The translations under genes were made by a program, and so were the position numbers. A DNA stretch of 64,000 bases from a virus: positions 7,592-71,591 of the IMG/VR virus record IMGVR_UViG_3300030329_001630. One strand, given 5' to 3'. Shown piece by piece: positions 1-34,351 of this stretch; the first letter of the stretch is position 1; every line of letters starts with the position of its first letter. Under the pieces are notes generated by a model. That model was given only the letters and a program-made list of their open reading frames with translations. It made no database searches and was not told where the DNA came from.

Positions 1-3000
1 GAGGCATTCTTTTTTCATCGAGTCGGCTATGTTTAAACGGTGTTCTAATTTTTTCAATATAAGGTTTAATGGAGCTAGAATTAATTCTATAATATCCGGG
101 GTCTAATCCAGCATAACTGTTTTCAACATATAGGATTTTACCTAAACCGTAAGTATGGTCTCCTGCGTGTGACTTGCTTTCTTGGGCTGCTCCCTCACAA
201 CTATCGTAATAATCTTCTGGCGTTCTATTTTCATAAAGAATACCAATAGTTCTAGCCGCGTCTCCTGTTCTGTTAGCTAACTCCCCCACTTCGTCATAAA
301 AACAAATCTCTTCTACTAAATCAATAATATCAGTAGGATCTGAGGGATGTGGAGGCAGTTTTACATTAGACCAATCAGTAAACGACTGTCCAATATACTG
401 CTGGCTTTTACTGACATATCTACTGTCTTGCACAGGAACCTGTTTAACATCACGTACATACTGCCAAAGAGGAATATAATGATTATTTTGCAAATCGTGA
501 CAAACTTCACACGTTGTTCGATCTTCGTCCTCCCCGCAATCCGTACTATCATACTCACACGAAGCCCTAGAGTGGGCAATGTCGTATACAATATCACCGG
601 GAGTTAATTCAATACCGTTAGAATCTTTGACGGTTTTTTTCCAAGTCCTAGTGTCTCCACTCGTAACTTCAGAAGGAGTCATACCTTCTTTCCAACAAGT
701 GTGAGCAGGCACAGGTACAGGATCACTAGCTGGATCACACCTTTGAGTAATTGACGTACTTATTTTAATACGCCCTTTACCGTCTGCATTAATTGGTACA
801 ACGATATCACCAGTTTGGTCGCAACTTGGTGCTTCGGTATCAAACGTCGTTCCTTCGCATTCTTTGTAAGGATACCAAAAATTATCAGAAGTTGTACTAT
901 AGTTAGGCGGACCCGGATCTGCGGGAGTAACCGTCTCATCTGCATCTAAGGCTGAAAACGTATTTGTTTCTTCTGCTCTGATATTAGTCAAAGCTTTCCA
1001 GACACCTTGCGCGTTATAAACTTCCGTACCAGCCGAGTATGTCTTATTAGGCACGTAGAGGAACGCAGTGCCATCAGGATCGACCACAGAAGAAGAATAG
1101 TACGTAATCTCTTTTCCTTTGTAGTCCGGCACATTGGTTTCTACGCCGTCTAAATCAAAGAGTTTACCGTTATCACTTGAACTATAACCAGCTTTAACAA
1201 ACTTATTTAAAATATAAATATTAGTTCCAACTGTAATAGCGGTTAAAGCTTCACTAGCGGTTTTTGTATCATTCTTGTGGGTAATATACTGGTAGACCTC
1301 AGGTGCAGGCTGATCTTCAATAGAAGGGGTCTGATCTTCTACTTTGTTAGTATCGGTGTCTACTTTATAAATATAAAATAATTTATCACCCAGTTTAGCT
1401 TGATAGTTTACTACTACAAGATAGCGTAAATCATCACTAACAGCAAACCAGTAATAGAAGAAATCGTTATCTCCTAAAGAACCGTTTTTAAATACTGTTG
1501 GCGTAAGATAAGAAGTATCTGTTTTAACAGTTGTGCCGTTACCACCTGCGTCATCCATTTTTAGTTTAACAATAGTAGTGGTATCGGCGGAAGCTGTAAT
1601 ACGAATAAACGTATTTAAATTAATTGCTTTAATGATTTCTGTAGCTACGTCTGCATTAGTAGTAGCATCCCTCAAAGCAATAATAGATTCCGTTGTAGTC
1701 ACTTCGTTTTCTTTAAAATGAAATGTTTGGGTATTACCTTTAACATCTACTAATTTAATAAAACGATTATGAAATGCTTTTCCTAAAGACAAGCCACCAG
1801 TAAATACTAAAGCCATAGAAGTTACAGCGTTAGTAAAAAAGCTACCAGTAGTAATTGTAGTATTTCCGGCAACTCCTGTCGTAGCCTGAGTAAGAGTCAC
1901 AGTACCCGAAGATTCAGTTACTGTTATTTTAGCCCCTAAGGCACTGTTTTCAATACCACCTCTAAATTCTTTTCCAAAATCTGAAGCTGAAGTACCTCTA
2001 TTAATATAAGTATAATCTAATCTACTAAAGGTTGCGGGAAGAACAGACAAAGCATCTGTAAAGTTTGCTGCTGTGCCAATACTTTTATTACCTGTATCTC
2101 CGCCACTAGGCATTTCTAAATTAATTTTACCTGTAGTACCCACAACTTCGCAATGCATTTTTCCGAATCTTGCAGGAGGCTTTCCAGATAAAGACGCGCT
2201 AAATCTAGGAGATAACTGTACACGGCTGGTTGCAAATTTTGACTCAAGGACATTCGCTAAAGTTAAAACCCCTGACGAAGACGTAACGGTAAATTGAGTA
2301 CCGCTTGCGCCACTGTTTGCGCCCCCAGTAAAAGCAGCCGGAGGAGCCGCACTACACGCGGACGCAAAATCTGTAGAATCTGTAATAGTTGTATTACCAG
2401 TAGTTTTAGCATAAGGCTGAGTAATAGTAATATCTCCTCCGCCAGCCCCAGAAGTAAAGTTAGTGGGGTTTACACTACATGCAGTATCCCAAGAAGCAGC
2501 ACTAGTTACCGTAGTATTACCTACAGTTCCGCTCATGGTTTGAGTTAAGACAACTACACCTGATCCAGTGTGGACTGCACGAATCGTACCGTTATGACCC
2601 ACAGAACTAGTTACGGCCTCTACAAAATTATTAGCTGCGGCTACTTTGGATACACCATTACCACTATTAAATTCAATATTACCTGAGTTTAACTTAGGAC
2701 AATCACTACAACTGTCAATTGCTTTATAGGTTTTAGTCGTACCATAAGCGTCGGTTAAAGCTAAGGTGCCGTTATTAGTAGCAGCCCCACTAAAAGTAAA
2801 AGTAGTACTAGCAGCAACAGCCGAATTATTAACGACTACGTTATTAGGACCAAGTTGAGCACCGTGTCCGTTACTGCTTAAAAGAGCTTCTCGCAGGTTA
2901 GCTGCCACTTCATTAGCAGAATTACCTTGTAAAAACTTAACGCTGCCGCTGTCTAAGTCACCGTTGTTACCACTAGTAGCTGATTTATAAGTTTTACTAA

Positions 3001-4003
3001 CTGTAGTTGAAGAATCGCTAGTAATTAATAAAGTAATAGTAGCGGTTCCCGCAGCGGGAGTACCTGTATTAAATGTCCAAGTAGCTGACCCATGAGTGTT
3101 AGTTTCGTTATGACCATTAGTTGAGTTAATAGCAGCAGCTAAGTTATCAGAAGCTTCTGTCCCGTTAGTTCCAGCGTTGAACAACACAATGGACCCGGCA
3201 AGATCTCCGTTTGTAACTGTACCATTAGCTTGTGCTTTATAAGTTTTAGTTACATTATTAGCTGACGTAAAAGTAACGGTTTCTCCTACAGTAGCAGCGG
3301 CATTAAATGTCATTGCTAAAGAAGAGTTATTATTAAAACCGTTAGAACTATAAAACGCTTCTTGAAAGTTTAAAGCAGCTTGGTGGGCATTTTCTAAAGG
3401 AGAAGAGGATTCATCATATCCAGAACTAAACTGTAAATACCCACTTCCATCAGGAGTACCGTTAGCACCAGACAGTTTATCTTTAGCGATAAATGTCTTT
3501 TTAGTACCATCGTAAGCTTCAAGAGTAATAGTACTTTCGTGTACTGCTTGTTGTTTAAAGGTAAAAGAACTAGTAGATTCTGTTTCATAACCAGAGTTAC
3601 CTAGTTTGGTTACAATATAATTAACAGTAGTAGCATCAGAGCTAATAAGTTTAATAGTACTTCCTACAATTCCTTGCGAGTTAAAAGCCCAAGAAGCTGT
3701 TGCAGAAGTGTCTGTTACAGTCCCGACTGTTAAAGTAGCGTTAGCACCGATTGAAGTAGGTAATCCTAATCCACCAAAATCTTTAATCTGGTTTGCAGCA
3801 ATATTATCATAAGTAGTTAACTGATTAGAGTTAGCTCTTTTTTCAATAGATTTTTCTAAGGTAGGAGTAGCGTTATCTATTACCTGAGCTTCACTGGGTA
3901 ATCGTTTAGATGGGGCTTGTCTCCCTACACCACCACTAAGGCTGTAAATAGGAATTCTAGTATTAAACCCCTTTTGTCTAGATCGTCTGTCATAGGGCGG
4001 CAT
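1..4003 (-). CDS. Tail tubular protein B / nozzle (T7 gp12-like), greatly enlarged by insertions; 3' end lies beyond the left edge of the window
   Basis: Missing from the ORF track because there is no stop in the window. ATG at 4003 with AAGGAG RBS at 4011-4016. N-terminus MPPYDRRSRQKGFNTRIPIYSLSGGVGRQAPSKRLPSEAQVIDNATPTLEKSIEKR matches the gp12 pattern (L.GGisQQP..R..Q...N......l.KR). The last residues, KIRTPFKHSRLDEKRMP, resemble the gp12 'id..tMP' motif. It directly follows tubular A. Confidence 0.88.
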   Translation of the reverse strand, partial: MPPYDRRSRQKGFNTRIPIYSLSGGVGRQAPSKRLPSEAQVIDNATPTLEKSIEKRANSNQLTTYDNIAANQIKDFGGLGLPTSIGANATLTVGTVTDTSATASWAFNSQGIVGSTIKLISSDATTVNYIVTKLGNSGYETESTSSFTFKQQAVHESTITLEAYDGTKKTFIAKDKLSGANGTPDGSGYLQFSSGYDESSSPLENAHQAALNFQEAFYSSNGFNNNSSLAMTFNAAATVGETVTFTSANNVTKTYKAQANGTVTNGDLAGSIVLFNAGTNGTEASDNLAAAINSTNGHNETNTHGSATWTFNTGTPAAGTATITLLITSDSSTTVSKTYKSATSGNNGDLDSGSVKFLQGNSANEVAANLREALLSSNGHGAQLGPNNVVVNNSAVAASTTFTFSGAATNNGTLALTDAYGTTKTYKAIDSCSDCPKLNSGNIEFNSGNGVSKVAAANNFVEAVTSSVGHNGTIRAVHTGSGVVVLTQTMSGTVGNTTVTSAASWDTACSVNPTNFTSGAGGGDITITQPYAKTTGNTTITDSTDFASACSAAPPAAFTGGANSGASGTQFTVTSSSGVLTLANVLESKFATSRVQLSPRFSASLSGKPPARFGKMHCEVVGTTGKINLEMPSGGDTGNKSIGTAANFTDALSVLPATFSRLDYTYINRGTSASDFGKEFRGGIENSALGAKITVTESSGTVTLTQATTGVAGNTTITTGSFFTNAVTSMALVFTGGLSLGKAFHNRFIKLVDVKGNTQTFHFKENEVTTTESIIALRDATTNADVATEIIKAINLNTFIRITASADTTTIVKLKMDDAGGNGTTVKTDTSYLTPTVFKNGSLGDNDFFYYWFAVSDDLRYLVVVNYQAKLGDKLFYIYKVDTDTNKVEDQTPSIEDQPAPEVYQYITHKNDTKTASEALTAITVGTNIYILNKFVKAGYSSSDNGKLFDLDGVETNVPDYKGKEITYYSSSVVDPDGTAFLYVPNKTYSAGTEVYNAQGVWKALTNIRAEETNTFSALDADETVTPADPGPPNYSTTSDNFWYPYKECEGTTFDTEAPSCDQTGDIVVPINADGKGRIKISTSITQRCDPASDPVPVPAHTCWKEGMTPSEVTSGDTRTWKKTVKDSNGIELTPGDIVYDIAHSRASCEYDSTDCGEDEDRTTCEVCHDLQNNHYIPLWQYVRDVKQVPVQDSRYVSKSQQYIGQSFTDWSNVKLPPHPSDPTDIIDLVEEICFYDEVGELANRTGDAARTIGILYENRTPEDYYDSCEGAAQESKSHAGDHTYGLGKILYVENSYAGLDPGYYRINSSSIKPYIEKIRTPFKHSRLDEKRMP

Positions 4004-4816: not shown

Positions 4817-6169
4817 TTACGACCCGGTAACAACGTACTCCGCAGTACCACCGAGAGCGGACATAATCTGCGCCTTAGTAGCCGCAGTTGCGCCAGATGC
4901 TCTATCACCTGCGTAGATAAGCGAAGCGCACTCGGGACGAAGAACGCCCGTACCAGCCATCATCGAAGCAACAGTAAAGTTGGTGTTACGACGGATGTCT
5001 TCCACCGAATCAACCTTCATGCCCTGAAGCGACAGCGAAGCAATAGCCTTGCTTTGCCAAATCATACCCTTAACACCCTTCTGGGTGCGAGTGCCGGTAG
5101 TCAGAGTCAAGTTACCATCGGCTTCTAATAAGAAGTCAAGGTTGTAACGAGCTTCACCAATGACCTGCTTCTGATAAGGCACAGTAGCGGGAGGCGTAGA
5201 CGTATCCTGAGCATCCCAGTTAGGAATGTGGTTAGACTTGATGATACGAGCACTCATGTACTCAAGCGAGTCACTAAGAGCCATCATACCATCACGAAGA
5301 CCATTACCAAGACCACCGGCTTCAGCGACACCGCCGAAGAACGGACGGCCAGCACCGCCACCAAGGTCACCAGTGTCCCGAGCAACACCAAGCGCACGAA
5401 TATCGTGGAAGGTCTGCGGGGTCACAGCGCAGTAAACACCCGAGGTGTCAGCGTTAATCTCCTGCAAGTGAATCATAAAGTCTTCAATTGCAGCGAGAAC
5501 AGCCAAAGCACCGTCAGCGCGTTCAGCGTCAGTAGCATCACTTGAATCAAGATATTCTAACTTCTGGCTAAATGCGCTACCGAAGCTAGGCGAATCTTTA
5601 AGCGTCTTGGTCCAGTCATCCCCATCCTGTGCGCGGGGATCGGTTGCAAGAATCGATTCAGCCGCAGCACGAACAAGGTAAGCACCGATCTGAAGGTCAC
5701 GGGCGTTAGCAAGCGTCTGACCAGCCTGACGGGCCAGTTCCTGACGATACTGCCACTGCGTAATCATAAGGTCGATGTTATCAACTTCAAAGTAAGTTGC
5801 AATGGGACGATTATCAAGGTTGACCGCAAAGGTCGTGCTTGCGTGATCGTTAGTGTTACCAAGCAGTTCTTCACCAGCAAACCATGCAGGCTTCAGAGCA
5901 ACACTTCCCATGATCGGGAATTCCATTGAACGACCAGAAGAAATAGTACGAGACTCAACAAGAGGCTCGAAAACACGATACTGATCGAAAGCATACATAA
6001 CTTCGCCTGACCAAATAGGAAGCCAAAGTTTGTTAGCACCGGCTGCACCGCCGGAGGTGGCACCAGCCATAGTAGTACGGAAGGGCTGCGAAGTCAGTGC
6101 ATCAACGGACGGCGTAACATTTGCCGATCCAGTGCCGCCAAAAGCAGCGTTATTAGTAACATAAGCCAT
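4817..6169 (-). CDS. Major capsid protein (T7 gp10-like)
   Basis: LWLPIWSGEVMYAF, RTISSGRSMEFPIMG, YRQELARQAGQTLANARD, IIKSNHIP and GTGVLRPECA motifs. Follows the scaffold gene. Confidence 0.95.
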   Translation of the reverse strand: MAYVTNNAAFGGTGSANVTPSVDALTSQPFRTTMAGATSGGAAGANKLWLPIWSGEVMYAFDQYRVFEPLVESRTISSGRSMEFPIMGSVALKPAWFAGEELLGNTNDHASTTFAVNLDNRPIATYFEVDNIDLMITQWQYRQELARQAGQTLANARDLQIGAYLVRAAAESILATDPRAQDGDDWTKTLKDSPSFGSAFSQKLEYLDSSDATDAERADGALAVLAAIEDFMIHLQEINADTSGVYCAVTPQTFHDIRALGVARDTGDLGGGAGRPFFGGVAEAGGLGNGLRDGMMALSDSLEYMSARIIKSNHIPNWDAQDTSTPPATVPYQKQVIGEARYNLDFLLEADGNLTLTTGTRTQKGVKGMIWQSKAIASLSLQGMKVDSVEDIRRNTNFTVASMMAGTGVLRPECASLIYAGDRASGATAATKAQIMSALGGTAEYVVTGS

Positions 6170-6316: not shown

Positions 6317-7201
6317 TCAACGTGGAAGACTTTGCCAATCAGTCTTCACCATACGTTCCTCTACAGCATTTCGATAGTTAGCATCTTGCATATACCGAGG
6401 GTCTGATCTTGCCTGAGTGAACTCGCCGTAAGAAGAAAAACCTTCCACGGTGGAACGCCCAGCCGGGTTGGGGGCACGATTCTGCGGAGGAACCGGCTCC
6501 TGCGCCTTAGGTGCAGCAGCCATCGCTTTATCGTACATAGAAGCAAGACCGTATAAAGTGACCTCGTAATCAGGACCAGCAAGCCTTTGATTAACAACAT
6601 CTTGTTGTTCTTTCGGAAGGTTATTTGCTGCCCATTCAAACATGGAACCAAGTCTTTCTTCTCCCCCTACTAATTGGGCGGCTTGTCCAAAAGCTTCCCT
6701 TTGTTTTGCTTTTTGACCAACAGTCCAATCATTAATCATTTGATCTGTAAAATTGGTTTTAGCTTTGATCTCTGCAATAGTAGCTTCTGAAAACTCACCT
6801 TTAATTGCTAACTCATTACCCCAATTAACGTAATCTTCTTGAGTTAGCTCACTTTTAACCTCAGGCTCTTCACTTTCTAATTTATCCTGAATAGACGGAA
6901 TACGAAGTTCCTGATCAGTAGGAATTTCTGTAGTAGGTTTCGGAGTTTCTTCCTTTGGAGCATGGAACTGTTTTTCAAGTTCTGCATAACTCTTAGCAAG
7001 AGCTTCCATATCTACTGTTCCGTCATCTCGCTTGAATTTCTCAGGAACAGCCGTCTGTTGAACGGCCTGTTCCGCCGTACCCCGAGCAGCCATAGCTGCG
7101 TCATATTCGGGAGTACCGGGCTGAATCACCACTTCTTGTGGCTGAGTTTCATTAGTAGGTGCAGAGTTATCTACAGGTTGAGTGATATTTTCTTCGGACA
7201 T
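6317..7201 (-). CDS. Capsid assembly scaffolding protein (T7 gp9-like)
   Basis: PEKF...EALAKSYAELEK, VGGEE...MFEWAANNL and C-terminal SDPRY..DANYRNAVEER motifs. Lies between portal and capsid. Confidence 0.9.
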   Translation of the reverse strand: MSEENITQPVDNSAPTNETQPQEVVIQPGTPEYDAAMAARGTAEQAVQQTAVPEKFKRDDGTVDMEALAKSYAELEKQFHAPKEETPKPTTEIPTDQELRIPSIQDKLESEEPEVKSELTQEDYVNWGNELAIKGEFSEATIAEIKAKTNFTDQMINDWTVGQKAKQREAFGQAAQLVGGEERLGSMFEWAANNLPKEQQDVVNQRLAGPDYEVTLYGLASMYDKAMAAAPKAQEPVPPQNRAPNPAGRSTVEGFSSYGEFTQARSDPRYMQDANYRNAVEERMVKTDWQSLPR

Positions 7202-7219: not shown

Positions 7220-8782
7220 TTATGCGGTTCCCGGTGACATCATGCCACCGACAGCCTGTTGTGCCATACCTGAAGCAGCTTCCATGCCCATTTGGGCGGC
7301 CTGAGCTTCTGACTGCATAGCCATCTGCTGTGCCATAGCTGCTTGCTGTTCTTGCTGCACTTCCTGTTCAGACTTCACCCAGTTAGTTGGATCAAGACCG
7401 AGGGCAGTAATAAGCGCTGTTGTGTAAGCATCCCATTTAAAGGTTGCTAATGATTCAGGTGGAAGGTTTCGCACCATTTCACCCATTTGAATAAGTTTAG
7501 TCAAATCAGAGTCCCTAGAAAGAGCCTGAAGACCTGTAATAATTTCAACCGAAAGGACTCCGCCTTCTGCAAATTGACTGGCTAATCTAGGATCGATTAA
7601 CCGCTGATCAATCATTAAGAATACGGCTCTTTCAACAATAGGCTGCATCATTTCTCTAGCAATAGAAGAGAAAGCACCGCCAAGAATAGTTTCTAATTCA
7701 GATCCAATCATGCGAACAGCCGTAGCAGTAACACGATCCCCAGAAGGAATAGCTCCTGCTGACATTAAAAATGAGGTAGATACTTCTCTACGCATTTGTT
7801 CGACTGCTGCCATGACAGATTGAATTTGAGGATTAAGAGTATCAGAAGGTGAAATAGTAAAGATGTCTTCTCGTCTAGCTGAAATATACGAACCATTATC
7901 TCGACCAGCGACATCTTCAACATTAGTTACACCTGCTGGATTAACTCCAATCCAGAATGCACTAGAAGCTGCCATCCCCTCAAGCATAGCCTGAGTATAA
8001 GACTCTAGGGTCTGGATGTCACCGTAAATCTCTTCACAATGAGATCGACCGTAGTTCTCTCCGGGGATAGCAGTCCATCGTAAACATGAATAAGGTAATA
8101 CAGTATAAGTACCTTGATCAAGTACAGTACCATCAGTATCTTCTCTTCTGACACTCCAATTATTATTTGTTTCGTTATAGGTTAATCTAACAAACTGGGT
8201 TTTATAACCTTTACGCCCGTAAACATTAGAGCTATCGTACTGATCTAAAGCGGGTTCATTGGAATCGTCTGCAACAAACTCTAAATGAATAATTTCAACA
8301 GGATTACCGACAATATCTCTACGAATAACATAGTGATCTTGTCGGATAACTCTGAAATTAAAATCATCTTCCATTACAACAATAACATCACCAGTAATAA
8401 TAAGATGCTGTAATGCGGTAAATACTGTTTCTCTAAAATTACCACCAATGATTTTAGTGTAAACTTGGTTTGCAACAACGTCAAGAAAAGCAGCAACTTG
8501 TGGATCTAATTCTTCTCCCGTTTTTACTTCAAACTGAAAGAAGGGTAAATCATTTAAAGGAATTAAAGCGGAAAGCATTCTTGAAGCAAGATTAGTTACT
8601 CCCCTTGCAGGCATTGAAGAACTAGGTTGAATAAGAGCGTCTTGCTCTGTCCATTCTTCTGGGGGCAAAATAGAAGGAATTGTAAGTTGGGAACAATCTC
8701 TTGCTCGATCTAATTTACTAGTTCTATTTGTATCTAAAAGTCTAAATCTTTCGTAAATACTTCCTTCAGGGGGAATAGGCAT
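7220..8782 (-). CDS. Portal / head-tail connector (T7 gp8-like)
   Basis: LTIPSILP, ARGVTNLASRMLSAL.P...PFF, GENYGRS, RVTATAVR...ELE..LGG.FS, IITGLQALSR and a Q-rich tail. Confidence 0.95.
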   Translation of the reverse strand: MPIPPEGSIYERFRLLDTNRTSKLDRARDCSQLTIPSILPPEEWTEQDALIQPSSSMPARGVTNLASRMLSALIPLNDLPFFQFEVKTGEELDPQVAAFLDVVANQVYTKIIGGNFRETVFTALQHLIITGDVIVVMEDDFNFRVIRQDHYVIRRDIVGNPVEIIHLEFVADDSNEPALDQYDSSNVYGRKGYKTQFVRLTYNETNNNWSVRREDTDGTVLDQGTYTVLPYSCLRWTAIPGENYGRSHCEEIYGDIQTLESYTQAMLEGMAASSAFWIGVNPAGVTNVEDVAGRDNGSYISARREDIFTISPSDTLNPQIQSVMAAVEQMRREVSTSFLMSAGAIPSGDRVTATAVRMIGSELETILGGAFSSIAREMMQPIVERAVFLMIDQRLIDPRLASQFAEGGVLSVEIITGLQALSRDSDLTKLIQMGEMVRNLPPESLATFKWDAYTTALITALGLDPTNWVKSEQEVQQEQQAAMAQQMAMQSEAQAAQMGMEAASGMAQQAVGGMMSPGTA

Positions 8783-29843: not shown

Positions 29844-30067
29844 AGATATGGAGCAATACGCTCAAAAGATTTAAGATCCACTACGTCGTGGTCTCTCCAC
29901 AAGTCATCCAGATTCAAGGTGATCAAACTACAAGTGATCTTTGCTTCGGGCCGCCGACGCTGCTCTTGAGCAAGCCACTTGTGTTTTTGTTTGTTGATCT
30001 CACGAATTCTCTTCTTGATTTCTTCCCCGTCTCTTACTTCAATATTTTTCCTAGAACTAGCCATCAA
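29840..30067 (-). CDS. Hypothetical early protein
   Basis: ORF overlapping its neighbours. Confidence 0.5.
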   Translation of the reverse strand: MMASSRKNIEVRDGEEIKKRIREINKQKHKWLAQEQRRRPEAKITCSLITLNLDDLWRDHDVVDLKSFERIAPYL

Positions 30068-30407
30068 TCAAATCCCTTTCGTAATCTTCGGCTTCCATTC
30101 GTGATTGTTCCCAATCACTTACCATATTACAACAATAATCCACAACAAAATCAGTAACCACCTTGAGGCACCAGCTACTATAGCCAAGCTCCAAGGGAGA
30201 AGGAAACGGATTGTACTCATCGTGGTACGAGTGACGGAGACTATAGCAAACAGAATCTCCGTACTTGTTCATAACTTCTACTGCCAAACCAATCGTGATC
30301 ATCCCCGTAAGTTGTGACTCTTTGGCTATGTCAGCAATCTTCCAAATGTCCCAGTCATTCTTTTTGGTGATGAAATTAATAGCTTCACGGGCTTCGTCAA
30401 TATCCAT
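30057..30407 (-). CDS. Hypothetical early protein
   Basis: 116-aa ORF with GAAAGGA RBS. Confidence 0.6.
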   Translation of the reverse strand: MDIDEAREAINFITKKNDWDIWKIADIAKESQLTGMITIGLAVEVMNKYGDSVCYSLRHSYHDEYNPFPSPLELGYSSWCLKVVTDFVVDYCCNMVSDWEQSRMEAEDYERDLIDG

Positions 30408-30421
30408 TGGTCAAGTTCCTT

Positions 30422-30796
30422 TCAACAATCGTGTCTATTTTCGTCGGGGACAATCGCAAGCTTCCCGCCAATATTAGTGTCTTGGATGAGGTTCACATGG
30501 ATCATCCAAAGACGGAAAATGTTCGGCTTCCAGTTGATGAGATTGGGAACACTTCCCTGCGCGTGCTCACCCGGCGAGTCACCCCACCGAGCAGTGTACT
30601 CCCAGTTCTCGGGGTTACGCCACCCATAATATTCGTCGAACTGCCCTACCGTGTAAAAGTAAAGATCGTGCAAACGATCAGGGAACTCAGGGTCGAAGCT
30701 CACTCGACCAACAAAATGCTCTTCATACTCCGGCCACTCAGGACCGCCGTCAGGGTGTCCAAGAGGTTTGAACTGAGGGGATTTATCAAAACTCAT
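30422..30796 (-). CDS. Hypothetical early protein
   Basis: 124-aa ORF with AAAGGAG RBS. Confidence 0.6.
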   Translation of the reverse strand: MSFDKSPQFKPLGHPDGGPEWPEYEEHFVGRVSFDPEFPDRLHDLYFYTVGQFDEYYGWRNPENWEYTARWGDSPGEHAQGSVPNLINWKPNIFRLWMIHVNLIQDTNIGGKLAIVPDENRHDC

Positions 30797-30858
30797 CGAT
30801 CAAGTCTCCTTTCTAAAGTGAAAGGGCAGTTTATACTGATGCCCAGCAGTAGAATCAA

Positions 30859-31278
30859 TTAGTCACGGTTCTTCGCCTGCGAGGCAAAGTGCCTGAATTC
30901 TCCCTTTTCCAGAATTCGCCTTTCGGCGTAAGCCGCACCGAGATCGAAAATGGTCGAGTAGTGGGCATCGTCAGCCTCCTCAATTTCAGCACGAATGTCA
31001 GCCTGACGAACCCGAAGTGGCTGACCAAACTCTGCTGCGCGAGTCAGGTCACGGAGAACCTTTGCGGGCATCTGGACAGTGACCGTATCGTAGTCGGGAA
31101 CATCCTTAGTGATTTCACGCCAGTGGTTGCAGTTCTCGATGGCGAGCTTGAGGTATTCACGCTCGAAGATCAGGGCGTGAAAGCGTTCACGCGCTTCCCT
31201 CTGCTTTTCGTGGAGGCAATCGATCCGATCTTCAAAGGGATCGGCATTGGGATCAGAGAGATCAATCTTATCAGACAT
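30859..31278 (-). CDS. Hypothetical early coiled-coil protein
   Basis: 139-aa ORF with GAAAGGA RBS and GC-rich codon usage. Confidence 0.65.
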   Translation of the reverse strand: MSDKIDLSDPNADPFEDRIDCLHEKQREARERFHALIFEREYLKLAIENCNHWREITKDVPDYDTVTVQMPAKVLRDLTRAAEFGQPLRVRQADIRAEIEEADDAHYSTIFDLGAAYAERRILEKGEFRHFASQAKNRD

Positions 31279-31308
31279 GTTGTTTCCTTTCGAGAAACAG
31301 GGTTGGGT

Positions 31309-31578
31309 TTAGTTGGAGAGACGAGTCTCAATTTCGTGCATTTGCATCTTTTGAAGAAGCAAAGCAAACTCCTCGCCAGAAAGGTCATCTCGAAGGTCGA
31401 ACAGATCTACGCCGCTGACGAAGTCCGGTTCCAAGGGGAAGTTGCGATTCTTTACCGAACCGTGAAAAATGACCTCAGCACCGTTGACCTGCTGGATCTT
31501 GGCAGAGTACCAGTCACCAACGGGAGCTTTGAGCATACGACGAACGACGTTGAGGGCAGGAGTGTCACACTTTTGCAT
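31309..31578 (-). CDS. Hypothetical early protein
   Basis: Probable start MQKCDT at 31578 with GAAAGG RBS. Confidence 0.55.
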   Translation of the reverse strand: MQKCDTPALNVVRRMLKAPVGDWYSAKIQQVNGAEVIFHGSVKNRNFPLEPDFVSGVDLFDLRDDLSGEEFALLLQKMQMHEIETRLSN

Positions 31579-31878
31579 TGTTGTTGCCTTTCGTGAAAGA
31601 AATAAGCAGGGGCCACCATACGAACAGGTGTACCCAGAAATGCCGTGAGAGGGCCGGAGAGGCCGCCTGACGGACGAGAAGAACAAACAAGGGGGAACTG
31701 CCCGAGTCCGGGCGGGGGCCGCAGTCGGGATTCTACGGCTTCTGAGGGGTAGTTGTGCTTAAGGGGGAGGTGCCGAGTCCGTGGCTGCCCACGCGGAGGG
31801 CCTGTGATAGTGGAAGGAGGCGGACGGGGCTTGTACCACGGGGGTTGTAGCACGGGGAGGGGTGATGAGGTGATCATT

Positions 31879-32529
31879 TTAGGCCGTCACGTCAACAATG
31901 TTGTTGAGAGGGGTGTGATTGTGCTCATTTGCGGCTCGGTAGTCGCTCTCGAAGCGATTCAGAGCGAATCCCTTACCCCGAGCGGCGCAAAGAGTGGTGT
32001 GAGTACCGAACGGCTGCATCCCGTTGTCGGGCGTGTACGTGACACGCAGGGATCCGATCTCGAACCAAGCCGTGACCTTCAGGACACGCGCCTTCTCGCT
32101 CTTGGCGTAGAAGCAGGAACGAGCATGACACGGCAGAGCCTCACCATCAGCGAGGGTCCAGTTCTGGATCGATGTCGTGCCGTCAGCGAAGAAGATCTTC
32201 ACCTTCGACTTCAGACGCGAGTGGCTCTCCGCGTTGTTGACCGTCACGACCGTACCATCCGAGTGGGTGATAGTGGAGATGTCGCCATTGTAGTTGATCA
32301 CGCTGTCACGGGTCTCCGCGTTGGGTCGGAAGAAAGCCTCCAGCATGTCAGCCTCGTACTTGAGGTCGGACATGGTGTGGAACGAGATCAGATCATCGCC
32401 CCTCTTGTGGTAGGCGAAGCACTCCTTCTCCTCCGAGCGGAACTGCTTGCCCCTCTCGTACTTGATGAAGTCTCCGTTGGGAGTCGAGACGCTGAACGAA
32501 ATGGCTGACGATTTGAGACCAATATGCAT
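31879..32529 (-). CDS. Hypothetical early protein
   Basis: 216-aa ORF with GAAAGGAG RBS and GC-rich codons. Confidence 0.65.
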   Translation of the reverse strand: MHIGLKSSAISFSVSTPNGDFIKYERGKQFRSEEKECFAYHKRGDDLISFHTMSDLKYEADMLEAFFRPNAETRDSVINYNGDISTITHSDGTVVTVNNAESHSRLKSKVKIFFADGTTSIQNWTLADGEALPCHARSCFYAKSEKARVLKVTAWFEIGSLRVTYTPDNGMQPFGTHTTLCAARGKGFALNRFESDYRAANEHNHTPLNNIVDVTA

Positions 32530-32838
32530 TGGTGTGCTCCTTTCAAGAGCATGATAGAAAAAGGCTGCCTACGCGGATTCGTTGGCAACCGATGAAGGTG
32601 AAACGCTGCCTACGCGGAGGCTACCTCCGAGGACAGACTGATGATAGTGGATCAGACTCCTCCGAAGAGGGCTGATCGATCCTTGGAACCGGGTGAAGGC
32701 CGCATCCTTGCTTGAGATCATCCGTGATCTCCCTACGCTAGAGGCTCATCTCCTTACAGCATTGCGATGAATGCTAATAGTGTGAAAAAAGGAATCCATT
32801 CAAACGGGTTGATGCGCTCTTCCATGAGGCACCTCCTT

Positions 32839-32872
32839 AAAAAAAGCAATGCCCTCGTTGGAGGGCACGCTT
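32839..32872 (-). terminator. Rho-independent terminator
   Basis: AAGCGTGCCCTC-CAAC-GAGGGCATTGC followed by a T-run. Confidence 0.7.
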
Positions 32873-32878
32873 CATGAC

Positions 32879-33082
32879 TCACCAGACAGGAGGGATTTCC
32901 TCCTCCTCAGTCAAGCAAGTAGCAAACGTTTCATCCAACTGCTTGTTGAGAGTGGCACGGAAGTTCTCACAGTCTTCTACAGTGAGCTTCTTTTTTCTTG
33001 CCTTCTGCTTGAGAAGCTCCGTAAGAAGAGAAAACTTCCGAGAGAACAACTCAATAGCGTTGATGGTTTTCATGTCAATCAT
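32879..33082 (-). CDS. Hypothetical early protein
   Basis: Start MIDMK at 33082 with GAAGGA RBS. Confidence 0.55.
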   Translation of the reverse strand: MIDMKTINAIELFSRKFSLLTELLKQKARKKKLTVEDCENFRATLNKQLDETFATCLTEEEEIPPVW

Positions 33083-33347
33083 CTGAGTTTCCTTCATTTA
33101 TCGAACTTTCAAGAACGTAGTAAAGAACAGCCATACTAAACGCAGTGAAACCAAAGCAGGTAAGATATCCAATCATCGGTCGTTGTATCCAATGAACAGA
33201 GGTGCGAAAGCCATAACGGCACAAACAACAATCAACAGCGTCAACATGATGCAAGCATACATGATGTGCTCCTTCCAGAGCGAGGTGATAGTGGAAAGAC
33301 AAAACAAGCCGTCATCCCCGGTAGGGGATGGGCTTGTGCGTGTGCGA

Positions 33348-33773
33348 TTAACGGGTAGGTACTGCGCGATCACCCGCGTACGAATCGGTGCTGAAACGAC
33401 CGTGGCTGGTGACTGAGGCGAGATCGGAGAACGCCTTCTTAAGCTCCAAGTTGATCTTATCGATGTTAGCACCGGCTTCTTCGATTCTCTCGGTAAAGAC
33501 CTGAAACATCTTGTCGTACTGATAGTCTTCCTTCGTCCACTTCATGTATTCATTGCCTTCCCTCTCGGCAGTGTCAGTGTCGCCCGCATCAAGAGCCGCG
33601 TACATCGCGCGGCCGTGAGTCTTAAGGCCCTCTGAGATCGCGGGCTTGGAGGTCGTGTGAGTCTTACGCTGTTCCACGAACACATCAAAAGCGGCCTCGC
33701 ACTCAGCCTTGCGGGACTGAAGAGAAACGATGAGTTCGAGAACAGCACGGAGAGTGAGGGTAACATTAGACAT
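33348..33773 (-). CDS. Hypothetical helical protein, probably the first early gene
   Basis: 141-aa ORF with GAAAGGA RBS, immediately after the putative genome end. Confidence 0.65.
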   Translation of the reverse strand: MSNVTLTLRAVLELIVSLQSRKAECEAAFDVFVEQRKTHTTSKPAISEGLKTHGRAMYAALDAGDTDTAEREGNEYMKWTKEDYQYDKMFQVFTERIEEAGANIDKINLELKKAFSDLASVTSHGRFSTDSYAGDRAVPTR

Positions 33774-33789
33774 GGTGTGATCCTTTCAG

Positions 33790-33860
33790 ATCGGGGGGTA
33801 CGGGGGGAAAGAGGATACGTTTCCTCTTATCTCCCCCTCTGTAAATTTCCGACCCCCTAA
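33790..33860. other. Probable junction of the physical genome ends (terminal-repeat region)
   Basis: G/C homopolymer-rich tract (minus strand GGGGGTCGGAAATTTACAGAGGGGG...CCCCCCGTACCCCCC) with an internal hairpin. It marks the switch from late genes to GC-rich small early genes. Confidence 0.45.
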
Positions 33861-34351
33861 TCGATTTTCCACCCACCTAACACAAGGGAAAGGTCGGTTC
33901 CACCGACTGTATTATCACCATCAAGATCCCAAACAGAGTTTTCCTTACCCCAGTCATTCAAGAGATCACTTAAGTCATCAGCAGTAAACTCTGTTTTAAT
34001 AATATAAAATATAAAATACCGGGGGCACTGCGTAGGGTTATCCTGCAAGTCAGTGCGGTTCCGCTCCCAGCTAACGAAGAGATGATCGTCAAAGATCTGT
34101 ACTTCATCAAACGAAAGCATGGGTTGGCCCGGATCTGAAGAGATCCAAGGACCGGCCAAGCGGCCCGGTACAAGATCAAAAGTGTAGTTTATACAAGCAG
34201 TTGTATTCTCGTCCCAATGCAATCGGGCCTCACCCTTGTACACAGTACGTGGACCTTCTTCGTAAACTTCATAATATATTTCTGAATTATCATCCCAAGA
34301 ATACTCAGAAAAGAACAACGGGAGCGTAGCCAGAACAAGGTACTTAATCAC
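33857..34351 (-). CDS. Putative secreted protein with a C-terminal dockerin/EF-hand-like module (Phycisphaerae-type)
   Basis: GTG start at 34351 with AGGAG RBS and hydrophobic N-terminus. C-terminus ADDLSDLLNDWG...WDLDGDNTVGGTDLSLVLGGW. Confidence 0.65.
   Translation of the reverse strand: MIKYLVLATLPLFFSEYSWDDNSEIYYEVYEEGPRTVYKGEARLHWDENTTACINYTFDLVPGRLAGPWISSDPGQPMLSFDEVQIFDDHLFVSWERNRTDLQDNPTQCPRYFIFYIIKTEFTADDLSDLLNDWGKENSVWDLDGDNTVGGTDLSLVLGGWKID

What the first reader, a model, noticed from the sequence alone, without database searches (positions are those of the whole stretch)
1490..3755. Matryoshka architecture: six copies of one domain nested inside each other within tail tubular protein B
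My translation of the unlisted ORF shows about 750 aa inserted just after the gp12 N-terminus. First halves of a repeat (A/S..TF...TI.L...G.TKTY.A......F..G......A.N...A..S.NGH) occur one after another. One complete copy follows (nt ~2445-2818, VAASTTFTF...VVVLTQTMSGTVGNTTVT...PTNFTSG). The second halves (.TVT...G.vtLtq...G..GNttI......P..FtGG) then occur one after another. This N0-N1-N2-N3-N4-[5]-C4-C3-C2-C1-C0 order implies each domain is inserted into a loop of the previous one instead of being tandem. The result would be a stalk made by an out-and-back polypeptide projecting from the nozzle, perhaps extending reach through a thick host envelope.
Basis: seen in the sequence. Interest (0 to 1): 0.82.

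Follow-up and report, generated by a model that had tools for sequence, protein, structure and literature searches.

The report
Six self-nested domains in phage nozzle
The tail nozzle protein of this uncultured T7-like phage carries a roughly 760-residue insert made of six copies of one small surface domain set inside one another like Russian dolls, so the chain most likely runs out and back to form a stalk on each of the six nozzle subunits.

Summary
Observation confirmed and the nesting reading supported. The gene lies on the minus strand (window 2..4003, running off the window; 1,828 aa in the whole genome). It is a T7 gp12-type nozzle protein.

Residues 85-845 are absent from close nozzle relatives of 866-1,004 aa. 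This stretch holds three element types, N, M and C, of one ~125-aa domain. Their order is N N M N M N M N M C C C C M C. That order parses without error as five copies nested in each other. A sixth, diverged copy encloses them, with its first strand lying upstream of the nest.

- Sister phages carry three inner levels instead of five, still balanced. In them the third domain is uninterrupted where ours is split.
- With the tip domain left out, the two arms are predicted to zip together (ipSAE 0.79, best of 3 controls 0.00).
- In an AlphaFold2 model, single PDB domains align across residues 97-737 and 86-845.

The fold resembles the outer domains of myophage sheaths, FliD and flagellin. The function is inferred only; I favour an adhesive or spacing stalk.

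Recursive self-insertion is published for the cyanobacterial RNA polymerase Si3 insertion. Unchecked notes from this scan report similar nests in other phage genomes, one of them in a nozzle protein.

The parts
2..4003 (-). Nozzle (T7 gp12-type, tail tubular protein B) gene. Only aa 1-1334 lie in the window; the full gene is 1,828 aa (G000:C1 6108..11594).
   Evidence: ORF list and translation. PF25675 Phage_nozzle 7.4e-62 on aa 1326-1821. phrog_457 tail. PDB T7 gp12 6r21 and relatives match aa 1333-1819.
3752..4003 (-). Conserved nozzle N-terminus, aa 1-84, shared with nest-less relatives.
   Evidence: Pairwise alignments to P0092, P0104, P0116, P0121 and P0124. Weak hhalign match of aa 18-64 to T7 gp12 7-53 (E 0.11).
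3704..3751 (-). Strand beta0 (aa 85-100; strand at aa 88-93 in the model). Proposed first strand of the outermost domain D5.
   Evidence: AF2 secondary structure E4-9. 32 of 50 VIA rows align one ~90-100-aa solved domain to model range 1-4..754-764. D5's contiguous part aligns to the domain profile only from strand 2 onward.
3575..3703 (-). N0 (aa 101-143): first part of D0. It has no M after it.
   Evidence: HMM hit 2e-15. Predicted contacts of aa 129-139 with aa 664-668, and of aa 103 with aa 704.
3326..3574 (-). N1+M1 (aa 144-226): first part of D1.
   Evidence: HMM hits. Predicted contacts of aa 144-149 with aa 626-629 and 652 in C1.
3092..3325 (-). N2+M2 (aa 227-304): first part of D2.
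   Evidence: HMM hits. Best match of P0012's contiguous D2 N-M part (SW 133).
2816..3091 (-). N3+M3 (aa 305-396): first part of D3.
   Evidence: HMM hits. In the interface list of the two-arm prediction.
2444..2815 (-). D4 (aa 397-520): the one uninterrupted copy, at the tip of the hairpin.
   Evidence: HMM N, M and C contiguous. AF2 alone gives pLDDT 88.3, pTM 0.85. Fold matches to sheath, FliD and flagellin outer domains.
2318..2443 (-). C3 (aa 521-562): second part of D3.
   Evidence: HMM hit 5.3e-18.
2153..2317 (-). C2 (aa 563-617): second part of D2, with an unusual RFGK(M/L)H tail.
   Evidence: HMM hit. Best match of P0012's C2 (SW 60), which has the same tail motif.
2015..2152 (-). C1 (aa 618-663): second part of D1.
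   Evidence: HMM hit. Best match of P0012's C1 (SW 74). Predicted contacts with N1.
1793..2014 (-). M0+C0 (aa 664-737): second part of D0.
   Evidence: HMM hits M 1e-7 and C 2e-14. Predicted contacts with N0. 9 of 50 VIA rows span model 13-15..651-654, which is aa 97-738.
1469..1792 (-). D5 main part (aa 738-845): diverged sixth copy, strands 2 onward. It is the base of the module.
   Evidence: N HMM hit 5e-8. hhalign against the D4-family alignment gives 92% probability, E 6.6e-7, D5 columns 6-104 to domain positions 17-128.
2..1468 (-). Start of the conserved nozzle body (aa 846-1334 in the window), shared with nest-less relatives.
   Evidence: 47.3% identity to P0092 over 770 aligned residues. 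A profile of 41 nest-less relatives aligns end to end with T7 gp12.

Best explanation
The gene encodes the hexameric tail nozzle (T7 gp12 type) of an uncultured 71.6-kb T7-like phage.

A surface loop just after the N-terminal strands has acquired a ~760-residue module (aa 85-845). Its position corresponds very roughly to T7 gp12 residues 60-65. The module consists of six homologous ~110-125-aa alpha/beta domains with the topology strand1-strand2-strand3-strand4-helix-hairpin-strand.

Each domain is inserted into a loop of the one outside it, in the order D5 > D0 > D1 > D2 > D3 > D4. Three different loops serve as insertion sites: after strand 1 (D5), after strand 3 (D0) and after the helix (D1-D3). 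The chain therefore runs outward through the first parts, turns in the one uninterrupted domain D4, and returns through the second parts. Both ends of the module meet at the same loop of the nozzle.

The result should be one six-domain stalk per subunit, six per virion.

- Shown here: the sequence grammar, the comparative series (no module, 3+1 levels, 5+1 levels) and the homology of the copies.
- Model-level only: the pairing of the halves and the role of the upstream strand in D5.
- Inferred: the function. The fold is that of the exposed, dispensable outer domains of myophage sheaths, FliD and flagellin. I therefore think the stalks are accessory surface appendages that bind or space the tail from the host surface (about 40% for adhesion).

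The architecture also explains how length can change in steps. Deleting any inner subtree is one contiguous deletion that leaves every outer domain intact.

The confidence of 0.8 is for the nested architecture, not for the function.
For: - Nozzle identity and gene order: portal, scaffold, capsid, tube A, nozzle.
- The module is absent from P0092 and four other relatives.
- Element order parses with 0 errors at depth 5 in P0002, P0003 and P0011. A random order of 5 N, 5 M and 5 C is valid with chance 273/756,756.
- HMM false hits: 6, 3 and 5 in 100 shuffles, and none in the rest of the protein.
- P0012 and five IMG/VR loci have N0[N1M1[N2M2C2]C1]M0C0 plus D5. Pairwise alignment with P0012 has one ~265-aa gap covering our D3[D4], at or near the M2|C2 junction.
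- Tree of the nozzle body (23 rows): nest-bearing proteins form one clade (100/100), split into a 5-level clade (100/99) and a 3-level clade (100/100).
- 21 proteins of <=700 aa have exactly one contiguous N-M-C.
- Two-arm prediction without D4 (ESMFold2): ipSAE 0.79/0.79/0.80, best of 3 controls 0.00; 767-779 contacts; partner pLDDT 88-89; runs agree in >=96% of contacts. By the tool's calibration this mark was reached by 58 of 80 solved complexes and 2 of 110 mismatched pairs. Lowest-error pairs are N0 with M0/C0 and N1 with C1.
- AF2 of aa 85-860: mean pLDDT 75.0, pTM 0.49.
- VIA alignments of single solved domains to the AF2 model: 9 of 50 rows span model range 13-15..651-654, 32 of 50 span 1-4..754-764, 7 of 50 span 312-313..430-435 (similar).
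- D5 is homologous to the domain from strand 2 onward.
- Fold: 8kee_A sheath Z 10.1 (rmsd 3.7, 104 aligned), 9cb9_A Z 9.5 (rmsd 2.5, 89 aligned), Foldseek E 2.7e-4.
Against: - No experimental structure exists. All pairing evidence comes from predictors run with a 5-row alignment.
- Two of the five AF2 models had mean pLDDT ~45, and pTM was only 0.49, so the overall shape (straight rod or folded back) is unknown.
- Explicit predicted contacts were listed only for D0 and D1. D2 and D3 pairings rest on the interface list, chain topology and orthology with P0012.
- The MAFFT multiple alignment A1 places P0012's gap differently from the pairwise alignment, so the exact edges of the two-level difference are ambiguous.
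- The D5/beta0 link rests on a strand with pLDDT ~65-71.
- Fold-search Z values of 7-10 are only modestly above the tool's stated background of 7-8.
- In 4 of 9 IMG/VR loci the parse has 1-4 errors. I attribute these to one missed or one spurious HMM hit each.
- Several more distant proteins (P0008, P0009, P0021, P0024, P0071) do not parse cleanly.
- Conservation is highest in the inner domains and lowest at the base. That is not the pattern of a hypervariable receptor-binding tip.
Confidence: 0.8

Rival explanations
1. Two unrelated tandem arrays. An array of N(+M) units folds on its own, followed by an array of C units that folds on its own. The 'complete copy' is just the junction of the two arrays.
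For: The raw pattern of A-type repeats followed by B-type repeats fits this on its own. Some database proteins show M-C units without a detected N (P0016, P0059, P0066).
Against: - It does not predict that the first N lacks M, or that a lone M precedes the last C. Both are conserved in P0002, P0003, P0010, P0011 and P0012 and in the loci.
- It does not predict equal losses of N, M and C between the 5-level and 3-level forms.
- N-M-C is one contiguous domain in at least 21 proteins and folds as one unit (pLDDT 88.3).
- The arms are predicted to bind each other (0.79 against 0.00).
Confidence: 0.04
2. The copies are nested in sequence and in evolution, but in the assembled hexamer the N arm of one subunit pairs with the C arm of a neighbour. 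This domain swap would give a collar around the nozzle rather than six free stalks.
For: The two arms bind when supplied as separate chains, so pairing in trans is physically possible. Published Si3 domains are said to exchange secondary-structure elements (PMC11515920, passages read). AF2 pTM is low at 0.49.
Against: The uninterrupted D4 joins the two arms with no long linker, which favours pairing in cis. The single-chain AF2 model forms D0 and D5 within one chain. No hexamer was modelled, so this was not tested directly.
Confidence: 0.08
3. The architecture is as in the best explanation, but the stalks do not bind the host. They act as structural struts or cement, bracing fibres or the adaptor or stabilising the closed nozzle, or as a steric shield.
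For: Outer sheath domains of the same fold have been proposed to stabilise tails as well as to aid adhesion (PMC9230969, passages read). Inner domains are more conserved than basal ones and no hypervariable tip is seen. The insertion site lies near the platform end of the nozzle if the low-confidence T7 mapping holds.
Against: No partner was identified and nothing here tests binding. The most conserved polar motifs of the family (GH after the helix, LTQ, GNT) are fully kept only in the two distal domains D3 and D4, by my reading of the alignments. That pattern would suit a distal binding site.
Confidence: 0.25

Closest known systems
Si3 insertion of cyanobacterial RNA polymerase beta' (RpoC2): recursively inserted SBHM / HABAS domains
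   Same: Homologous small domains are inserted into one another inside a loop of a large host protein, giving an elongated appendage. A 2026 survey reports a six-level recursive architecture (PMC13114784, passages read). [quoted passage not shown] Si3 is 'well-ordered and elongated' (PMC10895346, abstract).
   Different: The fold is different: here the matches are to sheath, FliD and flagellin outer domains, and no SBHM chain appeared in the lists. The host protein (phage nozzle) and biological setting (virion surface, not a transcription enzyme) also differ. Here the nest is a simple unbranched chain using three insertion sites, and relatives with 0, 3+1 and 5+1 levels are available.
Outer (additional) domains of myophage tail sheath proteins (e.g. 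cyanophage A-1(L) 8kee, PhiTE 9cb9, Mu 9khy)
   Same: Best fold matches of D4: Z 10.1, 9.5 and 8.6; Foldseek E 2.7e-4. These domains are exposed and lie away from the functional core. In some sheaths they are built from an outgoing and a returning stretch of chain (PMC9230969, passages).
   Different: No sequence-level match to any PDB chain. Sheath proteins carry one to a few such domains, not six copies of one domain nested in series. The host protein is different.
Flagellin and FliD (D1-D2-D3 out-and-back architecture)
   Same: D4 aligns to FliD D2/D3 and to flagellin outer domains at Z 7-8.2. From my own recall, not from a call, flagellin and FliD are classic hairpin-like chains whose outer domains sit inside inner ones.
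   Different: In those proteins the nested domains are not all copies of one family, and the depth is three to four. They are filament or cap proteins, not phage nozzle proteins.
T7 gp12 nozzle (6r21) and its tip domain (residues ~146-281)
   Same: The C-terminal ~490 aa are homologous to gp12. The repeated domain also resembles gp12-family residues ~143-247 in fold: Z 7.6-8.0 for D4 alone, up to 8.8 for D5. The T7 paper likens the tip domain to T4 gp11 (PMC6702177, passages), and T4 gp11 also appears in my lists (Z 5.9-6.8).
   Different: T7 gp12 has one such domain, inside the propeller. Here six copies sit in a different loop near the N-terminus, and close relatives lack the whole module.

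Membership tests
T7-type nozzle protein (gp12 / tail tubular protein B; Pfam PF25675) | Significant match to the family profile | tested here: met
   PF25675 at 210.1 bits against a cutoff of 27, E 7.4e-62, but only profile positions 301-789 of 794 on aa 1326-1821. hhalign to T7 gp12: 98.1% probability, aa 1331-1819 to T7 306-787.
T7-type nozzle protein (gp12 / tail tubular protein B; Pfam PF25675) | N-terminal third colinear with gp12 | tested here: inconclusive
   For our protein only a weak match: aa 18-64 to T7 7-53, E 0.11. A profile of 41 nest-less relatives aligns end to end with T7 gp12 (99.8%, E 3.9e-30, P0092 13-881 to T7 2-794), with low per-column confidence near the insertion site. 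Our aa 1-84 and 846 onward align to those relatives.
T7-type nozzle protein (gp12 / tail tubular protein B; Pfam PF25675) | Gene order portal - scaffold - capsid - tube A - nozzle | tested here: met
   Head-tail_con (window 7220-8782), T7 capsid assembly (6317-7201), major head protein (4817-6169) and Tube PF17212 (4015-4656) lie directly upstream on the same strand.
T7-type nozzle protein (gp12 / tail tubular protein B; Pfam PF25675) | Hexamer with seven-bladed propeller closing the channel | not tested
Recursively self-inserted domain architecture (as in RNAP beta' Si3) | The copies are homologous to one another | tested here: met
   N, M and C HMM hits at 1e-7 to 5e-18 for D0-D4. D5 against the D4-family profile: 92%, E 6.6e-7.
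Recursively self-inserted domain architecture (as in RNAP beta' Si3) | Parts occur in well-nested (bracket) order | tested here: met
   0 parse errors in P0002, P0003 and P0011 and in 5 of 9 IMG/VR loci; the other 4 have 1-4 errors.
Recursively self-inserted domain architecture (as in RNAP beta' Si3) | A relative has the host domain uninterrupted where this one is split | tested here: met
   P0012 has N2-M2-C2 contiguous. Its parts match our N2M2 (SW 133) and C2 (SW 60) best.
Recursively self-inserted domain architecture (as in RNAP beta' Si3) | First and second parts of each copy form one domain in three dimensions | tested here: met
   Met at the level of predictions only. Two-arm ipSAE 0.79 against a best control of 0.00, with N0-M0/C0 and N1-C1 contacts. 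Discontinuous VIA ranges for D0 and D5. Explicit pairs for D2 and D3 were not listed. No experimental structure.
Recursively self-inserted domain architecture (as in RNAP beta' Si3) | SBHM / HABAS fold of the repeated unit (membership in Si3 itself) | tested here: inconclusive
   The best fold matches are sheath, FliD and flagellin outer domains. No SBHM entry is among the rows shown. I file this as 'works like Si3', not as a member.
Sheath / FliD / flagellin outer-domain fold | Fold similarity covering most of the domain | tested here: met
   D4 model (pLDDT 88.3): 8kee_A Z 10.1, rmsd 3.7, 104 aligned; 9cb9_A Z 9.5, rmsd 2.5, 89 aligned; 5fhy_B Z 8.2, rmsd 2.8, 107 aligned. Foldseek 8kee_C E 2.7e-4. 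These Z values are only a little above the tool's stated background of 7-8.
Sheath / FliD / flagellin outer-domain fold | Sequence-level homology to a solved member | tested here: not met
   phmmer of D4 against all PDB sequences gave 0 hits at E<=10. No Pfam family on the whole protein's module or on 10 single-domain relatives; one of the 10 has an unrelated Laminin_G_3 domain.

The most novel reading that the evidence does not exclude
Self-nesting of this one small, insertion-tolerant surface domain may be a general way for phages to tune appendage length. Three loops accept a copy of the same domain. Any inner subtree can be lost by one contiguous deletion without harming the outer domains, so stalk length can change in whole-domain steps. 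Here that is 3+1 against 5+1 levels in sister clades, and none in the next relatives.

The same domain family nests itself independently in unrelated virion proteins: the 2,270-aa P0004-P0007/P0014 group with a branched depth-3 tree, and 1,480-3,550-aa proteins with about 10 copies. That would make it a natural model for how proteins grow by recursive domain insertion, and a scaffold for engineering rods of chosen length.
Probability: 0.4. Interest if true: 0.72.

Novelty: new variant of a known kind. Interest (0 to 1): 0.62.

Why it matters
Domain insertion is common, but recursive insertion of a domain into copies of itself is rare in print. The deepest case I found, in passages of a 2026 survey, is the six-level Si3 module of cyanobacterial RNA polymerase.

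This locus shows the same principle at comparable depth in a virion protein. It uses a different, unannotated fold (no Pfam family). It also comes with a clean comparative series: relatives with no module, a 3+1-level clade and a 5+1-level clade.

It predicts six previously unseen stalks on the tail of a group of ~70-kb T7-like phages. That prediction can be tested by cryo-EM or by expressing aa 85-845. It also suggests that such rods could be shortened or lengthened by whole domains.

Unchecked AI notes of this scan report similar self-nested stalks in other phage genomes, so the phenomenon may be widespread in phages.

Tried and rejected
**Searches and checks that gave nothing**
- Whole-protein self-BLAST listed only the identity match. 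I replaced it with 80-aa windows.
- tblastn of the window part of the protein against 50,697 phage records: no match.
- Pfam and PHROGs on aa 1-1334: no family. The nozzle match appeared only with the full-length protein.
- phmmer of D4 against PDB sequences: nothing.
- ESM Atlas: only viral 'hypothetical protein' clusters with no common Pfam family.
- DNA-level direct repeats in window 1400-3800: only short 15-45-nt matches at 60-93% identity. The copies are old, not recent duplications.

**Ideas considered and set aside**
- I first read D5 as a plain tandem copy after the nest. I set that aside after the VIA ranges and the hhalign start at strand 2.
- I asked whether D5 is the phage's own nozzle-tip domain. 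I rejected this because P0092 and other relatives lack D5 together with the nest.
- Mapping our N-terminus and middle region directly onto T7 gp12 gave only weak hits (E 0.11-0.34). The profile of nest-less relatives worked, but confidence is low at the insertion site.
- I looked for a duplication history in pairwise identities of the N, M and C parts and saw no consistent pattern. The idea that D3[D4] is a copy of D1[D2] is not supported.
- Per-domain conservation showed no hypervariable tip.

**Literature**
Searches for nested or recursive domain insertion in phage tail or nozzle proteins found no description of this architecture in a phage protein. One search returned 0 papers. The library lacks most subscription journals, and I did not consult supplementary files.

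**Earlier findings of this scan**
A look-up by sequence found nothing.

**Rows left out of the tree**
L003 (truncated at the contig end), L006 (same product length and HMM pattern as L005), P0010 (fragment), P0011 and P0012 (each the same length as a locus product already included, L005 and L008), and 27 of the 41 full-length nest-less relatives.

Full report
**What is at the coordinates**

In the whole 71,591-bp genome the gene is 1,828 codons long (G000:C1 6108..11594).

Only its last ~490 residues match a known family. PF25675 Phage_nozzle gives E 7.4e-62 on aa 1326-1821, covering profile positions 301-789 of 794. phrog_457 'tail protein' matches too. T7 gp12 and four other solved nozzle proteins also match within aa 1302-1819.

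The genes upstream on the same strand are portal, scaffold, major capsid and tube A. So this is the nozzle (tail tubular protein B) of a T7-like phage. Its portal is only ~35% identical to the nearest deposited phages.

**The repeats are real**

Cutting the protein into 80-aa windows and comparing them with the whole gave 38 off-diagonal matches at E<=0.01. They form two families, aa ~109-500 and aa ~451-741.

I divided the unit into three elements:
- N: three strands.
- M: a strand plus a helix ending in a GH motif.
- C: a hairpin with LTQ and GNT motifs and a tail ending in FTGG.

I built an HMM for each and iterated on the protein and seven relatives. In our protein the hits read N N M N M N M N M C C C C M C, followed by one more N (aa 734-771).

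As controls, 100 shuffles of aa 85-845 gave 6, 3 and 5 hits in total for N, M and C. The reversed sequence gave none. The other 1,067 residues of the protein gave none.

**The order is a nested bracket structure**

Under the grammar D -> N D* M D* C, the 15 elements parse with no error to depth 5:

N0 [N1 M1 [N2 M2 [N3 M3 [N4 M4 C4] C3] C2] C1] M0 C0

A random order of 5 N, 5 M and 5 C is valid with chance 273 in 756,756.

The more telling comparison is with the real rival, two tandem arrays. That rival does not predict that the first N lacks an M, or that a lone M sits just before the last C. Both features recur in P0003 (50% identity), P0010 (59%, a fragment), P0011 (43%) and P0012.

**N-M-C is one domain**

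Of the 83 hits in the exhaustive representative search, most matched the stretch that holds the uninterrupted copy D4. Twenty-one proteins of <=700 aa have exactly one contiguous N-M-C, 104-134 aa long. Others have plain tandem N-M-C units (P0015, P0018, P0019, P0029, P0052, P0056).

D4 folded with 34 such relatives gave pLDDT 88.3 and pTM 0.85, as one compact strand-helix-strand domain.

**Comparative series**

- *No module.* A search for shorter relatives found 57 proteins, 41 of them full-length nozzle proteins of 800-1,010 aa. P0092 (883 aa) aligns to our aa 1-84 and then directly to aa 846 onward. P0104, P0116, P0121 and P0124 behave alike. The whole module, D5 included, is therefore a lineage-specific insertion.
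- *Three inner levels.* P0012 (1,501 aa) and five IMG/VR loci (L007-L011) carry N0 [N1 M1 [N2 M2 C2] C1] M0 C0 plus D5.
- *Five inner levels.* Four loci (L003-L006) carry the five-level form.

Five of the nine loci parse without error. L003 has one spurious overlapping M hit, L005 and L006 miss M4, and L011 misses one C.

In a pairwise alignment our protein and P0012 are colinear except for one ~265-aa gap. The gap covers our D3[D4] and falls at or near the M2|C2 junction. P0012's contiguous D2 matches our N2M2 (score 133) and our C2 (score 60, shared RFGK(M/L)H tail) best. The multiple alignment A1 places the gap edges differently. The balanced difference of two N, two M and two C is firm, but its exact edges are not.

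A maximum-likelihood tree of the nozzle body (23 rows; omitted rows listed under Tried and rejected) puts all nest-bearing proteins in one clade (100/100). That clade splits into a five-level clade (100/99) and a three-level clade (100/100), with nest-less proteins outside. This fits one acquisition and one change of depth. The direction of that change is not resolved.

**Structure predictions**

*Two-arm test.* I folded aa 85-396 (N0 to M3) and aa 521-745 (C3 to C0) as two chains, leaving out D4. The verdict was 'supports binding':
- ipSAE 0.79, 0.79 and 0.80, with the best of 3 controls at 0.00.
- 767-779 contacts; partner pLDDT 88-89; runs agree in at least 96% of contacts.
- By the tool's calibration this mark was reached by 58 of 80 solved complexes and 2 of 110 mismatched pairs. 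Those counts hold only roughly, because my own 5-row alignment was used.
- The lowest-error pairs join aa 129-139 (N0) to aa 664-668 (M0), aa 103 (N0) to aa 704 (C0), and aa 144-149 (N1) to aa 626-629 and 652 (C1).
- Every N and M element of the first arm is in the interface list.

No similar solved complex is known by sequence, so a pass from memory is unlikely.

*Single-chain model.* AlphaFold2 on aa 85-860 with the same alignment gave mean pLDDT 75.0 and pTM 0.49. Three models scored 73.5-75 and two ~45. Coordinates are not returned, so I read the domain make-up from structural alignments. Among the 50 rows:

| Rows (of 50) | Model range | Residues | Unit |
|---|---|---|---|
| 32 | 1-4..754-764 | aa ~86-845 | D5 with beta0 |
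| 9 | 13-15..651-654 | aa 97-738 | N0 to C0 (D0) |
| 7 | 312-313..430-435 | aa 396-519 | D4 |
| 1 (weak, Z 2.8) | 59..576 | aa 143-660 | N1 to C1 (D1) |
| 1 | 231..434 | aa 315-518 | not assigned |

In each of the first three groups a single ~85-100-residue solved domain is aligned across the range. One search shows the same pattern.

**The sixth level**

D5 (aa 738-845) is homologous to the domain: hhalign gives 92%, E 6.6e-7. It aligns only from strand 2 onward. In the model its own N-terminal stretch is helical, while a strand at aa 88-93, upstream of the nest, completes the sheet.

So the most likely order is D5 > D0 > D1 > D2 > D3 > D4. This outermost link rests on the model alone, and the pLDDT of that strand is ~65-71.

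**Fold and position on the nozzle**

D4's best structural matches are:
- outer domains of myophage sheaths: 8kee_A Z 10.1, 9cb9_A Z 9.5, 9khy_a Z 8.6; Foldseek E 2.7e-4;
- FliD D2/D3 and flagellin outer domains, Z 7-8.2;
- residues ~143-247 of T7-type nozzle proteins, Z 7.6-8.0;
- T4 gp11, Z 5.9.

These values are only modestly above the tool's stated background. The top 25 rows are nevertheless all exposed virion or flagellar proteins, apart from one secreted lytic polysaccharide monooxygenase. The domain has no Pfam family. Its nearest ESM Atlas clusters are viral hypothetical proteins.

A profile of the 41 nest-less relatives aligns end to end with T7 gp12 (99.8%, E 3.9e-30). It places the insertion site near T7 residues 60-65, after the N-terminal strands that the T7 paper assigns to the platform domain (PMC6702177, passages). 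Per-column confidence there is low. Where the stalks point was not determined.

**Mechanism**

*Shown:* six homologous domain copies in well-nested order, a balanced change of depth between sister clades, and absence of the module in the next relatives.

*Model-level:* pairing of the halves into domains along an antiparallel out-and-back path.

*Inferred:* each of the six nozzle subunits carries a six-domain stalk. By analogy with the exposed, dispensable outer domains of sheaths and flagellar proteins (PMC9230969, passages), the stalk probably acts in reversible adhesion to, or spacing from, the host surface.
- Evidence bearing on this is thin. The family's most conserved polar motifs are fully kept only in D3 and D4 (my reading), but no hypervariable tip is seen.
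- A structural or stabilising role is a live rival.

One property follows from the architecture itself. Removing any inner subtree is a single contiguous deletion that leaves all outer domains intact, which makes stepwise shortening easy.

**Comparison with what is known**

Recursive insertion of a domain into its own homologues is published for the Si3 module of cyanobacterial RNA polymerase beta'. The sources I read were PMC13114784 (passages, 'six-level'), PMC11515920 (passages) and PMC10895346 (abstract).

Out-and-back chains are also known in sheath proteins. From my own recall, they are known in flagellin and FliD too.

I found no paper describing self-nesting in a phage nozzle or tail protein. 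The library lacks most subscription journals, and supplements were not consulted.

Unchecked AI notes of this scan report similar self-nested stalks in other phage genomes. One first-reader note describes a nozzle protein with what looks like the same element order.

I therefore rate this as a new variant of a known kind: a new fold family and a new host protein, at a depth equal to the published maximum.

Noticed in passing
window 467-979 (minus strand; aa ~1009-1179 of the nozzle protein): A second lineage-specific insertion in the nozzle body relative to P0092, in gaps of 81, 32 and 24 aa. The span holds 8 cysteines. Through P0092 it maps very roughly to the T7 gp12 tip-domain region (T7 ~180-200). 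It may be an elaborated, disulfide- or metal-stabilised nozzle tip.
   Followed up: partly
P0004-P0007, P0014 (database proteins of ~2,270 aa; P0005 is a 1,108-aa fragment): An unrelated large protein family with a different N-terminus and no Pfam hit on record carries the same domain. Its order is N[NMC]MC, then N[N[NMC]MC]M[NM[NMC]C]C. This is a branched depth-3 tree in which one domain hosts insertions at two sites. It parses with at most one error.
   Followed up: partly
P0008, P0009 (~1,480 aa), P0024 (3,548 aa): P0008 and P0009 have about 10 N, 10 M and 10 C elements, with N parts mostly first and M-C parts later, and apparent depth up to 9. P0024 has more elements and apparent depth 7. 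Each has 3-4 parse errors, so the true trees are unresolved. P0008 and P0009 end in a region that looks like a coiled coil by eye.
   Followed up: no
L001 3858-6092 and 2-3844 (genome, downstream of the nozzle gene, minus strand): A 744-aa ORF with only a faint match to the T7 tail-fibre N-terminal domain (PF03906, E 0.041, below the cutoff), followed by an ORF of at least 1,281 aa. These are likely fibre or spike genes, so the phage probably has fibres in addition to the nozzle stalks.
   Followed up: no
window 34693-48900 and 48924-53810 (minus strand): Two giant ORFs of 4,735 and 1,628 aa in a 71.6-kb T7-like genome. This is far larger than the internal virion proteins of T7 (size comparison from my recall).
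   Followed up: no
window 30000-34000: G+C rises to 0.51 over about 4 kb against 0.38-0.46 elsewhere, and the GC skew changes sign there. This is possibly the genome end or early region.
   Followed up: no
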